Source of the DNA: a virus
Lineage: Duplodnaviria; Heunggongvirae; Uroviricota; Caudoviricetes
Strand: one strand, 5' to 3'
Length of the DNA: 8,741 bases
IMG/VR virus record: IMGVR_UViG_2713896788_000008
Of the stretch, positions 1 to 6,697 are shown piece by piece. Under the pieces are notes generated by a model. That model was not told the origin of the DNA and searched no databases. It worked only from the letters and a program-made list of their open reading frames with translations. Within the stretch, counting starts at the first letter, position 1. Each line of letters opens with the position of its first letter. The translations under genes and the position numbers were made by a program.

Positions 1-59
1 TGGCAGAATGTCTGGAGAAAAAAGGACTGTACCGGAGAGCAGCTGAACGATGGGCAAAA

Positions 60-299
60 GTGATGGTACAGCTAAGTGATGACCAGAAAAGAAAAGTGGC
101 GGCACAGAAACGAGCAGAGTGTTTGCGTAAGGCGCGCCGGACTCCGGTTTCACCGGTGAACCTGACCGAAATAAAACAAGCGGTCAACAGACTACATTCT
201 GAGTTGGGAATGGGATTTGAAGAGCGGCGGGTATTCCGACGATATAAAGGGACAGGAGAACAGAATACGTCCGGAAACGCGCGGTCAAAAAAATGCTAA
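60..299 (+). CDS. Small basic hypothetical protein (79 aa from the GTG at 60; ATG at 63). The reading frame is open back to the window start, so the true start may lie upstream of the window.
   Basis: ORF track 60..299; the same frame translated from base 3 has no stop (AECLEKKGLYRRAAERWAKV precedes the annotated start). Lysine/arginine-rich. Followed by a terminator hairpin at 340-362. No family recognised with confidence. Confidence 0.45.
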   Translation: MMVQLSDDQKRKVAAQKRAECLRKARRTPVSPVNLTEIKQAVNRLHSELGMGFEERRVFRRYKGTGEQNTSGNARSKKC

Positions 300-339
300 A
301 AAATATCTGAGAGCGTTATTGCCTGTTACCATAAGAAAA

Positions 340-362
340 AGCGACTTTAGTGGTCGCTTTTT
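340..362. terminator. Bidirectional rho-independent terminator between convergent genes
   Basis: Stem agcgac (340-345), loop tttagtg, stem gtcgct (354-359), with an A-run upstream (336-340) and a T-run downstream (358-362). It sits between the plus-strand ORF ending at 299 and the minus-strand ORF ending at 381. Confidence 0.6.
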
Positions 363-380
363 GTGTCATATATAAGTCGT

Positions 381-711
381 TTAAGTAAACCTGTCTGAAC
401 AGGTTCTCTGGTCGTGTTTGTCTTTGTTGGGTACAAATTGAGAATATTTTTCATTAATTAATCTTCTTCTGCAGGCTTCAATAACCCACGCTGAAAAATT
501 TCCTGAACCTTTCAGATCAAGAGCGATGTTAATTTGTTCAATCATCTGGTTTGGAAATCGGATGTTGCGGGTTGTTGTTNNNNNNNNNNNNNNNNNNNNN
601 NNNNNNNNNNNNNNNNNNNNNNNNNNNNNCGATGTTAATTTGTTCAATCATCTGGTTTGGAAATCGGATGTTGCGGGTTGTTGTTCTGCGGGTTCTGTTC
701 TTTGATGACAT
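381..711 (-). CDS. Ribbon-helix-helix-like small DNA-binding protein, interrupted by scaffold gap 580-629. If the duplicated 56 bp is collapsed, it encodes a 74-aa protein MSSKNRTRRTTTRNIRFPNQMIEQINIALDLKGSGNFSAWVIEACRRRLINEKYSQFVPNKDKHDQRTCSDRFT.
   Basis: ORF track 381..647 (contains X from the N-run). Reverse-complement reading of 686-711 continues in frame into the duplicated block with an ATG at 711..709. The pattern of a beta-strand (NIRFP), helix (QMIEQINIALDL), G-x-N turn and second helix (FSAWVIEACRRRL) is typical of Arc/MetJ/CopG-type RHH proteins. Coordinates as given include the artefactual gap. Confidence 0.55.
524..685. other. Assembly artefact: 56-bp perfect direct duplication (524-579 and 630-685) flanking a 50-N scaffold gap (580-629)
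   Basis: The sequence cgatgttaatttgttcaatcatctggtttggaaatcggatgttgcgggttgttgtt appears immediately before and immediately after the N-run, as expected for two overlapping contig ends joined with a spacer. Confidence 0.8.
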
Positions 712-842
712 AATGTTGCCCCATATTCAGTGTTGCTGATTTGTATTATCTGAAGTTGCTTTTACGTTAATTTGATGCAGATCAATTAATACGATACCTG
801 CGTCATAATTGATTATTTGACGTGGTTTGATGGCGTAGATGC

Positions 843-892
843 NNNNNNNNNNNNNNNNNNNNNNNNNNNNNNNNNNNNNNNNNNNNNNNNNN
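843..892. other. Second scaffold gap (50 N) just upstream of the cos right-end sequence
   Basis: Run of exactly 50 N; no obvious flank duplication here. Confidence 0.9.
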
Positions 893-963
893 TGCACGTT
901 GTGACATGTAGATGATAATTATTATCATTTTGCGGGTCCTTTCCGGCGATCCGACCGGTTACG
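893..963. promoter_or_regulatory. cosQ: Right-end cos segment (cosQ-containing region) of a lambdoid genome
   Basis: gtgacatgtagatgataattattatcattttgcgggtcctttccggcgatccgaccggttacg closely resembles the last ~60 bp of the lambda right end as I recall it (...GGGTCCTTTCCGGTGATCCGACAGGTTACG). The exact cosQ boundaries are not determinable from sequence alone. Confidence 0.6.
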
Positions 964-975
964 GGGCGGCGACCT
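964..975. promoter_or_regulatory. cosN: cosN cohesive-end sequence (12-nt 5' overhang, GGGCGGCGACCT)
   Basis: Exact match to the lambda cohesive end GGGCGGCGACCT, followed by CGCGGGTTTTCGCTATTTATGAAAATTTTCCGG (976-1008), identical to the start of lambda DNA as I recall it. Confidence 0.85.
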
Positions 976-1008: not shown

Positions 1009-1150
1009 GGAAAATCATGTCGGTACTTCTCGAACATAACTATTTGTTTTTTCTAATATCGAATCCGTAAAGGTCCGACATGAAAACGCCTGAAAAAGTC
1101 ATTTTCGGGCACTTTCATGTCGGACCCTGTATTTGTTGTGAGACTGTTTC
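1009..1150. promoter_or_regulatory. cosB: cosB-like terminase small-subunit binding region with three R elements (R3 1015-1026 direct, R2 1073-1083 inverted, R1 1115-1126 direct) and an AT-rich spacer that is a candidate IHF site
   Basis: tcatgtcggtac (1015-1026), gtccgacatga (1073-1083, exact reverse complement of tcatgtcggac) and tcatgtcggacc (1115-1126). The direct-inverted-direct layout copies lambda's R3-I1-R2-R1, but the motif differs from lambda's CGTTTCC-containing R sites. The R3-R2 spacer 1027-1072 is AT-rich. Confidence 0.7.
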
Positions 1151-1670
1151 ATGAAGGTTAATAAAAAGAAACTTGCCGAAATTTTCAACGTGGATCCGCG
1201 AACGATTGAACGCTGGCAGTCTCAGGGGCTCCCTTGCGTCTCCGGAGGTGGTAAGGGCGTTGAATCTGTATTTGATACCGCCACGGCAATTCAGTGGTAT
1301 GCGCAGAGGGAAGCTGATATCGAAAATGAAAAACTCCGTAAAGAGGTTGAGGATTACAGGGCTGCCAGCGAGGCAGATCTCCAGCCTGGGACTATTGAGT
1401 ACGAATGCCATCGACTTACGCGTGCGCAGGCTGACGCCCAGGAGCTGAAGAATGCCAGAGACTCCGCAGAAGTGGTGGAAACCGCATTCTGTACTTTCGT
1501 GCTGTCACGGATCGCAGGTGAAATTGCCAGTATTCTTGACGGGATCCCTCTCTCAGTACAGCGGCGTTTTCCGGAACTGGAAAACCGACATGTTGATTTC
1601 CTGAAACGGGATATTATCAAAGCCATGAACAAAGCAGCCGCGCTGGATGAACTGATACCGGGGTTGCTGA

Positions 1671-1696
<26 letters not shown>
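1151..1696 (+). CDS. nu1: Terminase small subunit (Nu1-like), 181 aa
   Basis: ORF 1151..1696. From about residue 50 onward (ADIENEKLR...LSEYIEQS) it matches lambda Nu1 as I recall it; the N-terminal winged-HTH region ([36 protein letters not shown]...) is related but clearly divergent. Lies 187 bp downstream of cosN, as in lambda. Overlaps the start of A by 26 bp. Confidence 0.9.
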
Positions 1697-5397: not shown

Positions 5398-6697
5398 TCT
5401 CCCGCATATTGCCAGCATGGCTTTTAATGAGCCGCTGATGCTTGAACCCGCCTATGCGCGGGTTTTCTTTTGTGCGCTTGCAGGCCAGCTTGGGATCAGC
5501 CGCCTGACGGATGCAGTATCCGGCGACAGCCTGACTGCCGGAGAGGCACCCGCGGCGCTGGCGTTATCCGGTGATGATGACGGACCACGACAGGCCCGGA
5601 GTTATCAGGTCATGAACGGCATCGCCGTGCTGCCGGTGTCCGGTACGCTGGTCAGCCGGACGCGGGCGCTGCAGCCGTATTCGGGAATGACCGGTTACAA
5701 CGGCATTATCGCCCGTCTGCAACAGGCTGCCAGCGATCCGATGGTGGACGGCATTCTGCTCGATATGGACACACCGGGCGGGATGGTGGCGGGAGCATTT
5801 GACTGTGCTGACATCATCGCCCGTGTGCGAGACATAAAACCGGTATGGGCGCTGGCCAACGACATGAACTGCAGTGCAGGTCAGCTGCTTGCCAGCGCCG
5901 CCTCCCGGCGTCTGGTCACGCAGACCGCCCGGACAGGCTCCATCGGCGTCATGATGGCTCACAGTAATTACGGTGCTGCCCTGGAGAAACAGGGCGTGGA
6001 AATCACGCTGATTTACAGCGGCAGCCATAAGGTGGATGGCAACCCCTACAGCCATCTACCGGGTGATGTCCGGGAAACACTGCAGTCCCGGATGGATGCA
6101 ACCCGCCGGATGTTTGCGCAGAAGGTGTCGGCATATACCGGCCTGTCCGTGCAGGCTGTGCTGGATACCGAGGCTGCAGTGTACAGCGGTCAGGAGGCCA
6201 TTGATGCCGGACTGGCTGATGAACTTGTCAACAGCACCGATGCGATCACCGTTATGCGTGATGCACTGGATGCACGTAAATCCCGTCTCTCAGGAGGGCG
6301 AATGACCAAAGAGACTCAATCAACAACTGTTTCAGCCACTGCTTCGCAGGCTGACGTTACTGGCGTGGTGCCAGCGACGGAGGGCGAAAACGCCAGCGCG
6401 GCGCAGCCGGACGTGAACGCGCAGATCACCGCTGCGGTTGCGGCAGAAAACAGCCGCATTATGGGGATCCTCAACTGTGAGGAGGCTCACGGACGCGAAG
6501 AACAGGCCCGCGTGCTGGCAGAAACCCCCGGTATGACCGTGGAAACGGCCCGCCGCATTCTGGCCGCAGCACCACAGAGTGCACAGGCGCGCAGTGATAC
6601 TGCGCTGGATCGTCTGATGCAGGGGGCACCGGCACCGCTGGCTGCAGGTAACCCGGCATCTGATGCCGTTAACGATTTGCTGAACACACCAGTGTAA
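5378..6697 (+). CDS. C: Head maturation protease gpC (S49/ClpP-like serine protease family), 439 aa, GTG start
   Basis: The ORF-track frame 5243..6697 is open from 5243, but the lambda gpC N-terminus (TAELRNLPHIASMAFNEPLMLEP) begins at the GTG at 5378, preceded by the Shine-Dalgarno gaggaggag (5368-5376). That gives 439 aa, as in lambda, and a 20-bp overlap with the end of B. Confidence 0.88.
6092..6697 (+). CDS. nu3: Scaffolding protein Nu3, made by in-frame internal initiation within C (201 aa)
   Basis: In-frame ATG at 6092 (MDATRRMFAQKVS...) shares the C stop codon; the 606-bp length equals lambda Nu3. Established lambda gene arrangement. Confidence 0.7.
   Translation: MDATRRMFAQKVSAYTGLSVQAVLDTEAAVYSGQEAIDAGLADELVNSTDAITVMRDALDARKSRLSGGRMTKETQSTTVSATASQADVTGVVPATEGENASAAQPDVNAQITAAVAAENSRIMGILNCEEAHGREEQARVLAETPGMTVETARRILAAAPQSAQARSDTALDRLMQGAPAPLAAGNPASDAVNDLLNTPV

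What the first reader, a model, noticed from the sequence alone, without database searches (positions are those of the whole stretch)
381..842. Small RHH-type DNA-binding gene immediately upstream of cos, convergent with the 79-aa ORF
An Arc/CopG-like protein encoded right next to the packaging site is not part of lambda itself. Small genes of unknown function sit between the lysis genes and the Nu1 homologue in several E. coli cryptic prophages (from memory the DLP12 ybcW-ylcI-nohD neighbourhood), so this may be that kind of moron-like regulatory or accessory gene. Its target is unknown.
Basis: inference. Interest (0 to 1): 0.45.

Follow-up and report, generated by a model that had tools for sequence, protein, structure and literature searches.

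The report
YlcI/YnfO small RHH-like gene beside cos

Summary
The 74-aa minus-strand ORF is real. In the window it is broken by a scaffold artefact: 50 N plus a 56-bp duplicated overlap. Once collapsed, the DNA is 100% identical to many complete STEC genomes, where the gene is annotated "YlcI/YnfO family protein" (WP_001303940.1). It hits Pfam DUF3950 (E 2e-18) and NCBIfam YlcI_YnfO_N.

An RHH fold is supported but not proven. The profile aligns to Arc/Mnt in the canonical register (P 4e-4; 0 of 300 shuffled controls reach it). AlphaFold gives an extended arm plus two helices. No Pfam RHH model hits, and fold searches were empty.

The N-terminal 49 codons are under strong purifying selection (pN/pS 0.05-0.08).

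The claim "not part of lambda" is wrong. Lambda has an intact 64-aa copy, complement 48109-48303, 199 bp from cosN. It is identical to K-12 YlcI and unannotated in J02459 and NC_001416.

The gene nearly always lies between the lysis/moron genes and the terminase genes, on the opposite strand. This also holds in phages with an unrelated HNH/Terminase_2 packaging module.

Most likely it is a stand-alone Arc-like DNA-binding regulator with an unknown target. The family is already known and its function is uncharacterised. Interest is modest.

The parts
381..711 (-). YlcI/YnfO-family (DUF3950) gene, 74 aa after removal of the artefactual 106 nt. The true ORF is 711..686 + one copy of the 56-bp repeat + 523..381. 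Residues ~1-13 form a basic arm (MSSKNRTRRTTTR), ~14-18 the predicted strand (NIRFP), 19-32 helix A, 37-55 helix B, and 50-74 a variable tail.
580..685 (.). Assembly/scaffold artefact inside the ORF: N50 (580-629) plus a second copy (630-685) of the 56 bp at 524-579.
336..362 (.). Bidirectional terminator-like hairpin (AAAAAGCGAC...GTCGCTTTTT) between the convergent PerC-family gene and the YlcI-like gene. It lies 19 nt after the YlcI-like stop codon.
   Evidence: z -3.7 and -3.9 on the two strands
1..299 (+). 3' 299 nt of a 104-aa PerC-family transcriptional activator gene. The convergent neighbour; its first 16 nt lie outside the window.
719..722 (-). GGGG Shine-Dalgarno-like run 7 nt upstream of the ATG.
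   Evidence: read directly from the sequence
772..834 (.). 63-bp block identical between this prophage and lambda (lambda 48364-48426), within an upstream region that otherwise differs at 17 of 199 positions.
781..813 (.). Imperfect 33-bp palindrome ATCAATTAATACG-7 nt-CGTCATAATTGAT, 70-102 nt upstream of the ATG. A candidate operator; inference only.
843..895 (.). Second N50 join artefact (843-892) with a duplicated TGC (840-842 = 893-895).
964..975 (+). cosN 12-nt cohesive-end sequence GGGCGGCGACCT, identical to lambda. The nick falls after 963.
1151..1696 (+). Nu1-type terminase small subunit, divergent from the YlcI-like gene across cos.

Best explanation
The ORF encodes a member of the YlcI/YnfO (DUF3950) family. 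The protein is about 50 residues of strongly conserved domain followed by a disposable, mosaic C-terminal tail. The domain has the order basic N-terminal arm, short strand, helix, Gly-rich turn, helix.

It most likely folds as an Arc/Mnt-type ribbon-helix-helix dimer and binds DNA. The gene is transcribed leftward, antisense to the late operon. It has its own ribosome-binding site and its own terminator. So it behaves as an independent unit, like bor, rather than as part of the late transcript.

The most likely role is a small stand-alone transcriptional regulator, probably a repressor and probably autoregulated. A candidate operator is the conserved palindrome 70-100 nt upstream of its start. 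Ancestrally it may have headed a leftward accessory operon (RHH, then DUF1398, then bor).

Shown: the gene, family membership, purifying selection, synteny, and presence in lambda.

Inferred: RHH fold (moderate support), DNA binding, repressor role, operator, and expression in the lysogen.
For: Family:
- Pfam DUF3950 E 1.8e-18; NCBIfam YlcI_YnfO_N above its cut-off; phrog_949.
- 100% DNA identity to annotated genes.

Real protein:
- pN/pS 0.05-0.08 at near-saturated synonymous sites across three different flanking contexts.
- Divergent homologues at 35-55% identity keep the K-x-IRFP...NFSAWV-x-EAC motif.

RHH:
- hhalign against a 122-sequence Arc/Mnt profile aligns 36 columns in the canonical register (NIRFP to NLRWP, then helix A and helix B). 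Score 21.2, P 3.8e-4.
- 0 of 300 column-shuffled profiles reach that score (mean 8.9, max 18.1). The reversed profile scores 10.5.
- AF2 models: extended 1-18, helices 19-32 and 37/39-55.
- Weak HicB-like PHROG hit, E 0.011.
- The KGSGNFS turn fits the G-x-S/T/N turn of RHH proteins (read from the sequence; the motif is from my own knowledge).

Independent unit:
- Hairpin terminator 19 nt after the stop codon.
- Orientation opposite to the lysis and terminase genes in at least 73 of 80 viral contigs, in DLP12, and in an HNH/Terminase_2 phage.

Transcription in a cryptic prophage:
- ybcW-ylcI is listed as a convergent overlapping-transcript pair in at least 50% of K-12 RNA-seq samples (PMC12288877).

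Regulator-like homologues:
- In a PICI-like island, a 60-aa DUF3950 gene is preceded by two perfect GGTACGTACC palindromes flanking a TATAAT.

Operon link:
- In Qin-type loci, ynfO is followed 41 nt later by a DUF1398 gene on the same strand. Lambda and DLP12 keep DUF1398 and bor on that strand.
Against: - No Pfam RHH or Arc model hits the protein, even at E 10. The only trace is RHH_6 at E 0.09-0.12 in one distant member.
- hhalign probability is only 36%.
- The AF2 models have low confidence (pLDDT 63-64) and show no strand. That is expected for a monomer, but it is not positive evidence.
- No sigma-70-like promoter of 9/12 or better lies on the gene strand within 200 bp.
- The palindrome is not found upstream of the homologue in the HNH-type phage, although the protein domain there is nearly identical. 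If an operator exists, it may lie elsewhere.
- No experiment on any family member was found in the literature searched.
Confidence: 0.55

Rival explanations
1. It is a packaging-module accessory factor. The protein acts at or near cos, or on the small terminase subunit. It might bind the invariant block left of cosQ to modulate cos cleavage or termination. It might protect a resident prophage's cos. It might counter or assist satellites.
For: - The start codon is 199 bp from cosN, in lambda as well.
- The divergent upstream neighbour is a Nu1-type TerS in 66 of 80 viral contigs, HNH in 4, and TerL in 3.
- The same position and orientation occur in front of an unrelated HNH/Terminase_2 packaging module.
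- The conserved DNA block (codons 1-50, upstream region and cosQ/cosN) travels together, while Nu1 types and downstream genes vary.
- In a PICI-like satellite island in E. coli (P0214), and in seven related protein clusters whose genomic context was not examined, DUF3950 is fused to the N-terminal DNA-binding domain of Terminase_2. This recalls the satellite protein Rpp, a TerS DNA-binding-domain mimic (PMC6739421).
Against: - The gene is antisense to the late operon that makes terminase, so co-expression is not built in.
- Lambda packaging is described as needing a ~200-bp cos with cosQ, cosN and cosB (PMC4669245), and the ORF lies outside that.
- Homologues in Tatumella, Rouxiella and a Clostridia MAG lie in non-phage contexts without terminase genes.
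- Physical linkage to cos may simply reflect shared recombination modules.
Confidence: 0.13
2. It is the antitoxin-like half of a two-gene module. The RHH domain would bind the operator, and the variable C-terminal tail would neutralise a partner encoded downstream, for example DUF1398 (YdfO/YbcV/lambdap78).
For: - The architecture, a conserved RHH-like N-terminus with a variable tail, matches that of RHH antitoxins (my own knowledge).
- In Qin-type loci, a DUF1398 gene follows 41 nt downstream on the same strand. It is the downstream same-strand neighbour in 16 of 80 viral contigs.
- Weak HicB-like PHROG hit.
- The tail type changes with the downstream module.
Against: - In this window the gene is followed by a terminator and a convergent PerC gene, with no partner.
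- In lambda and DLP12, an opposite-strand gene separates it from DUF1398.
- There are no significant PADLOC or toxin-family hits for either protein.
- DUF1398 is not a known toxin.
- The tail junction coincides with a mosaic breakpoint, so the tails may simply be read-through of whatever DNA follows.
Confidence: 0.1
3. It is not a functional gene. The ORF would be a by-product of DNA conserved for cos function or for recombination between lambdoid phages.
For: - It is unannotated in both lambda reference records.
- No convincing promoter was found.
- The flanking non-coding DNA is also about 91% conserved.
Against: - Between lambda and the window there are 12 synonymous against 4 non-synonymous codon changes in 50 codons. 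None of the non-synonymous changes falls in residues 4-29 or 32-49.
- pN/pS is 0.05-0.08 while pS reaches 0.69.
- The coding part alone is conserved (84% DNA identity) where the flanks are unrelated.
- Homologues at 35-55% identity occur in other genera.
Confidence: 0.03

Closest known systems
E. coli K-12 YlcI (DLP12 prophage) and YnfO (Qin prophage); Pfam PF13132 DUF3950 / NCBIfam NF041551
   Same: Same family. The N-terminal 49 residues are nearly identical: 4 differences from YlcI, at residues 3, 30, 31 and 50. Same position and orientation: between the lysis/moron genes and the Nu1-type nohD/nohA gene, on the opposite strand.
   Different: The C-terminal tail differs (INEKYSQFVPNKDKHDQRTCSDRFT, against TSEKRAYTSIKSDEE in YlcI and a 28-residue tail in YnfO). 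The downstream neighbour differs too: a convergent PerC-family gene here, ybcW in DLP12, and same-strand DUF1398 ydfO in Qin. No member has a known function.
Unannotated 64-aa ORF of phage lambda, complement 48109..48303 of J02459/NC_001416
   Same: Orthologous position, with the ATG 199 bp left of the cosN nick. The protein is identical to K-12 YlcI. The DNA from codon 50 through cosN aligns without gaps to the window at about 91% identity.
   Different: It is not annotated in the reference records. It must not be confused with the lambda gene called orf-64 (lambdap73), which lies between Q and S.
Arc and Mnt repressors of phage P22 (Pfam PF03869, ribbon-helix-helix)
   Same: Same size class and same order of elements. 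The alignment is in register: NIRFP to NLRWP/NFRMP, then helix A, a glycine turn and helix B. Both have a basic N-terminal arm. Both are small phage-encoded genes.
   Different: The Pfam Arc model does not hit it. Identity is about 17%. Helix B carries the family-specific NFSAWV-x-EAC motif. Dimerisation and DNA binding are untested. Its genomic role is different, since it is not in an immunity region.
RHH antitoxins (HicB C-terminal domain, ParD, CcdA, FitA types)
   Same: An N-terminal RHH-like domain plus a variable C-terminal tail. Weak HicB-like PHROG hit. Sometimes followed by a same-strand gene, DUF1398.
   Different: No toxin partner in this window, in lambda or in DLP12. No toxin-antitoxin or defence model hits.

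Membership tests
YlcI/YnfO family (Pfam DUF3950, NCBIfam NF041551) | Score above the curated cut-off of the family models | tested here: met
   Pfam PF13132: 66.6 bits against a cut-off of 25. NCBIfam NF041551: 34.6 bits against a cut-off of 30.
YlcI/YnfO family (Pfam DUF3950, NCBIfam NF041551) | Conserved motif K/R-N-I-R-F-P ... N-F-S-A-W-V-x-E-A-C | tested here: met
   All motif residues are present. I15, R16, F37 and V41 are invariant across 24 diverse members.
YlcI/YnfO family (Pfam DUF3950, NCBIfam NF041551) | Prophage position next to a Nu1/Noh-type packaging gene, as for ylcI-nohD and ynfO-nohA | tested here: met
   Window: ORF (-), cos, Nu1 (+). K-12 DLP12. 66 of 80 viral contigs.
Ribbon-helix-helix superfamily (Arc/MetJ/CopG) | Detectable homology to an established RHH family | tested here: inconclusive
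   hhalign against the Arc/Mnt profile gives P 3.8e-4 and probability 36%, in the correct register. 0 of 300 shuffled controls reach the score. However, no Pfam RHH model hits at E up to 10, apart from RHH_6 at about 0.1 in one distant member.
Ribbon-helix-helix superfamily (Arc/MetJ/CopG) | Strand-helix-helix topology of about 45 residues | tested here: inconclusive
Ribbon-helix-helix superfamily (Arc/MetJ/CopG) | Obligate dimer whose two strands pair into a ribbon that reads the major groove | not testable with these tools
   Only single-chain prediction of database sequences was allowed. It needs a multimer prediction or an experiment.
Type II toxin-antitoxin antitoxin | Co-transcribed adjacent toxin gene | tested here: not met
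   The stop codon is followed after 19 nt by a terminator hairpin and then a convergent PerC gene. No toxin or defence model hits.
cos / terminase accessory factors | Binding to cos DNA or to terminase, and an effect on packaging | not testable with these tools
   Only positional evidence and TerS-domain fusions in distant members.

The most novel reading that the evidence does not exclude
The most-studied phage carries an overlooked, strongly conserved gene that belongs functionally to the packaging module. The DUF3950 RHH protein would bind the invariant block or palindrome between its own start and cosQ, or would partner with the small terminase subunit. That would control access to cos, for example by shielding a resident prophage's cos from foreign terminases or satellites, or by tuning packaging termination. 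The satellite-encoded DUF3950-TerS-domain fusions would then be hijacking versions of the same factor.
Probability: 0.08. Interest if true: 0.7.

Novelty: already known. Interest (0 to 1): 0.3.

Why it matters
As a sequence it is ordinary. The protein is identical to a RefSeq entry found in hundreds of genomes, and it belongs to curated families.

The residual value lies in four observations.
- The family has no known function, yet its DNA occurs in 84% of complete E. coli genomes, at up to 13 places per genome.
- It is under very strong purifying selection.
- It keeps a fixed place beside the packaging module of lambdoid phages.
- An intact copy sits unannotated in lambda, 199 bp from cos.

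If it proves to be a regulator with a defined target, that would fill a small gap in the lambda gene map and in the E. coli y-ome. The neighbouring PerC-family gene makes this stretch relevant to EHEC prophage-encoded regulation.

Tried and rejected
- Sequence search of the PDB with the protein and with a family profile found no RHH hit. It found only weak TerS-domain hits caused by the fused members in the profile.
- hhalign against single Arc and Mnt sequences was too weak on its own, at probability 14% and 1%. I replaced it with a 122-sequence profile and shuffling controls.
- PADLOC defence models gave only noise.
- Promoter scans on the gene strand found nothing at 9/12 or better, only 8/12 candidates.
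- A search for a shared operator between the lambda-type and HNH-type upstream regions found one shared 11-mer and one shared 8-mer, but no repeated-site pattern.
- The literature holds no functional study of YlcI, YnfO or DUF3950.
- The lambda ribosome-profiling paper (Liu et al. 2013) is not held.
- I considered and rejected identity with lambda 'orf-64'. That is lambdap73, between Q and S, a different gene that happens to have the same length.
- The reconstructed 74-aa sequence could not be submitted to the representative search or to structure prediction, because it is not an exact window translation. I used P0001 instead, which is 97% identical.
- Most apparent homologues in unrelated genera are lambda control-DNA contamination. 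I did not use them as evidence of distribution.

Full report

The window is a lambdoid prophage segment. It holds the 3' part of a PerC-family gene, the ORF in question, cos, and then Nu1- and A-type terminase genes.

On the minus strand an ORF stops at 383-381 and starts at ATG 711-709. A run of 50 N (580-629) breaks it. The 56 bp before that run (524-579) are repeated exactly after it (630-685). That is the signature of two overlapping contig ends joined by a scaffolder. Removing the N run and one repeat copy gives a 225-nt ORF encoding MSSKNRTRRTTTRNIRFPNQMIEQINIALDLKGSGNFSAWVIEACRRRLINEKYSQFVPNKDKHDQRTCSDRFT, 74 aa.

The collapsed 436-nt stretch is 100% identical over its full length to many complete STEC chromosomes. 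There the ORF is annotated WP_001303940.1, "YlcI/YnfO family protein". The second N run (843-892) is the same kind of artefact, with a 3-bp TGC overlap.

The 12-nt cohesive end GGGCGGCGACCT is at 964-975. After removing the artefacts, the ATG lies 199 bp from the cosN nick.

The "79-aa" convergent ORF is really a 104-aa PerC-family gene whose first 16 nt lie outside the window. A hairpin at 336-362 folds well on both strands (z -3.7 and -3.9). It has a U-run on each side, so it is a plausible bidirectional terminator 19 nt after the stop codon of the small gene.

**2. What is it?**

The protein matches three libraries:
- Pfam DUF3950: E 1.8e-18, 66.6 bits against a cut-off of 25.
- NCBIfam YlcI_YnfO_N: 34.6 bits against a cut-off of 30.
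- phrog_949, of unknown function.

In K-12 the order is rzpD, bor(-), ybcV(-, DUF1398), ybcW(+), ylcI(-), nohD(+).

The statement that such a gene "is not part of lambda itself" is wrong. Lambda has an intact 64-aa ORF at complement 48109..48303. Its protein is identical to K-12 YlcI. It sits in the same layout: bor(-), lambdap78(-, DUF1398), lambdap79(+), the ORF(-), then cos. It is absent from the feature tables of J02459 and NC_001416. Other lambda-like phage records do annotate it as YlcI/YnfO. It must not be confused with the lambda gene known as orf-64 (lambdap73), which lies between Q and S.

**3. Is it a functional protein?**

Between lambda and the window, the first 50 codons show 12 synonymous and 4 non-synonymous codon changes. 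The non-synonymous ones fall at residues 3, 30, 31 and 50.

Nei-Gojobori counts over codons 1-49 compared three contexts: the window type, the lambda/DLP12/Qin type, and a type found in HNH/Terminase_2 phages. They give pN/pS 0.05-0.08 with pS 0.45-0.69.

In the HNH-type phages only the coding part is similar (84% DNA identity), and the flanks are unrelated. So the conservation belongs to the protein, not to cos DNA.

An exhaustive HMMER search of 1.8 billion cluster representatives found only 109 clusters. Many of those are error-laden lambda reads. Real divergent members, at 35-55% identity, keep the motif K-x-IRFP...NFSAWV-x-EAC.

After about residue 50 the tails are unrelated between variants. 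The mosaic junction of the phage genomes falls inside the 3' part of the gene.

**4. Is it RHH?**

In favour:
- A profile of 23 diverse DUF3950 domains, compared with a 122-sequence Arc/Mnt profile, aligns 36 columns in the canonical register. NIRFP pairs with NLRWP, and helix A and helix B follow. Score 21.2, P 3.8e-4, probability 36%.
- None of 300 column-shuffled Arc profiles reaches that score (mean 8.9, sd 2.3, max 18.1). The reversed profile scores 10.5.
- I checked the recalled Arc, Mnt and CopG sequences against Pfam before using them.
- Two AF2 runs give an extended N-terminus (1-18), helix 19-32, a short turn and helix 37/39-55, at pLDDT 63-64. That is what an RHH monomer looks like without its partner.
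- There is a weak HicB-like PHROG hit.

Against:
- No Pfam RHH model hits the protein.

I therefore treat "works like an Arc-type RHH" as the best-supported reading, at about 0.65-0.7 for the fold. Membership of an established RHH family is not demonstrated.

**5. Context and how it may work**

The gene is antisense to the late operon and has its own Shine-Dalgarno-like GGGG and its own terminator.

In 80 IMG/VR contigs the divergent upstream neighbour is a Nu1-type TerS in 66, HNH in 4 and TerL in 3. The downstream neighbour varies: Rz/lysis gene 33, PerC 29, same-strand DUF1398 16, ybcW-like 2.

In an HNH/Terminase_2 phage the same arrangement holds: lysis genes, YlcI(-), 41 bp, HNH(+), TerS, TerL.

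The region is found in 4543 of 5426 complete E. coli genomes, at up to 13 places per genome.

K-12 RNA-seq meta-analysis lists ybcW-ylcI as a convergent overlapping-transcript pair (PMC12288877). So ylcI is transcribed in a cryptic prophage.

I found no good sigma-70 promoter on the gene strand.

A 63-bp block (window 772-834) is identical between lambda and this prophage, while the rest of the 199-bp upstream region differs at 17 positions. The block contains a 33-bp imperfect palindrome at 781-813. This is a candidate operator and nothing more, because the HNH-type upstream region lacks it.

In a PICI-like satellite, a 60-aa family member is preceded by two perfect GGTACGTACC palindromes flanking a TATAAT. 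That fits an autoregulated DNA-binding protein.

My best explanation is a stand-alone Arc-like regulator. It is probably autoregulated, and ancestrally it headed a leftward accessory operon (RHH, DUF1398, bor), as still seen in Qin-type loci.

**6. Rivals**

(a) A packaging-module factor. The fixed position beside two unrelated packaging modules supports this. So do fusions of DUF3950 to the N-terminal DNA-binding domain of Terminase_2. One fusion, P0214, lies in a satellite-like island in E. coli, and seven related protein clusters share the architecture. These fusions are reminiscent of Rpp (PMC6739421). Against it are the antisense orientation, the ~200-bp definition of cos (PMC4669245), and non-phage homologues.

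(b) An antitoxin-like partner of DUF1398. The architecture and the Qin-type operon support it. It is not met in this window, in lambda or in DLP12, and no toxin or defence model hits.

(c) A non-gene. The substitution pattern refutes this.

**7. Comparison with what is known, and novelty**

The gene is an exact copy of an annotated RefSeq protein in a curated family, so it is already known as an object. Its function is not known. I found no experimental paper on YlcI, YnfO or DUF3950.

The points that go slightly beyond the databases are these:
- the evidence for an Arc-like fold;
- the strength of purifying selection;
- the constancy of the position next to the packaging genes;
- the unannotated intact copy in lambda;
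- the TerS-domain fusions in satellites.

**Verdict**

Novelty is "already known". Interest is 0.3.

Noticed in passing
window 580-685 and 843-895: Two N50 runs are scaffold joins, not missing sequence. The first has an exact 56-bp duplicated overlap (524-579 = 630-685). The second has a 3-bp TGC overlap. Any ORF or repeat analysis of this window should collapse them first.
   Followed up: yes
window 1-299 (+): The 3' part of a 104-aa PerC-family transcriptional activator gene (Pfam E 5e-44 for the full protein from L002 5685-5999). From my own knowledge, prophage-encoded PerC homologues (Pch) of EHEC activate the LEE island. This copy was not compared with pchA-E.
   Followed up: partly
window 1016-1023 (+), 1075-1082 (-), 1116-1123 (+): Three copies of CATGTCGG between cosN and the Nu1 start, with the middle one inverted. 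This is the R3 / inverted R2 / R1 layout described for complex cosB sites (PMC4669245). The sequence differs from lambda's, which suggests a different packaging specificity.
   Followed up: no
L001 1454-1648 (lambda J02459 complement 48109..48303): Intact 64-aa YlcI-identical ORF that is not annotated in J02459 or RefSeq NC_001416, although it is annotated in related phage records.
   Followed up: yes
L051 5590-6363 (E. coli CP027459, PICI-like island: integrase, AlpA-like, primase, TerS, capsid): Two adjacent DUF3950 genes lie in the island's regulatory region. The second (P0214, 120 aa) is fused to the first ~53 positions of Terminase_2, the TerS DNA-binding domain. Seven more clusters share this architecture. 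Operator-like repeats precede both genes: GGTACGTACC twice at 5546 and 5579, and GTTTAACAC / GTTAACAC at 5893, 5936 and 5973. It may be an Rpp-like packaging redirector or the island's repressor.
   Followed up: partly
L003 4001-4701; L005 4001-4702; L057 743-1276: Recurrent linkage of DUF3950 with DUF1398 (YdfO/YbcV/lambdap78). The two are adjacent on the same strand, 41 nt apart, in Qin-type loci. In lambda and DLP12 one opposite-strand gene separates them. RefSeq labels lambdap78 'head protein', but it is a DUF1398 protein.
   Followed up: partly
L002 6318-6328 and L055 4220-4230: The otherwise unrelated regions upstream of the lambda-type and HNH-type YlcI genes share an exact 11-mer, TATTCAGTGTT, in opposite orientation relative to the gene. 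In the HNH-type phage it lies inside the HNH coding sequence. About 0.02 such matches are expected by chance. Unexplained.
   Followed up: partly
L007-L048 (genome-contig hits); many 'ena' proteins P0022-P0120: Most DUF3950 'homologues' in unrelated taxa (Streptomyces, Nanosynbacter, Cohnella, Flavobacterium, a spider) sit on ~48.5-kb or ~3.5-kb contigs. They are lambda control DNA; the 3.5-kb size fits the nanopore lambda control amplicon. Many carry frameshift errors that create false long variants.
   Followed up: partly
L040, L043-L047, L050: Genuinely divergent DUF3950 genes (44-59% identity) in Rouxiella, Tatumella and a Clostridia MAG lie beside housekeeping genes (cytochrome bd, malic enzyme, transporters), with no terminase nearby. 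So the family is not strictly tied to cos.
   Followed up: partly
L002 2571-3784: In the reference O157 prophage, an IS1203 copy sits between the lysozyme gene and an antirepressor-like gene, upstream of the region covered by the window.
   Followed up: no
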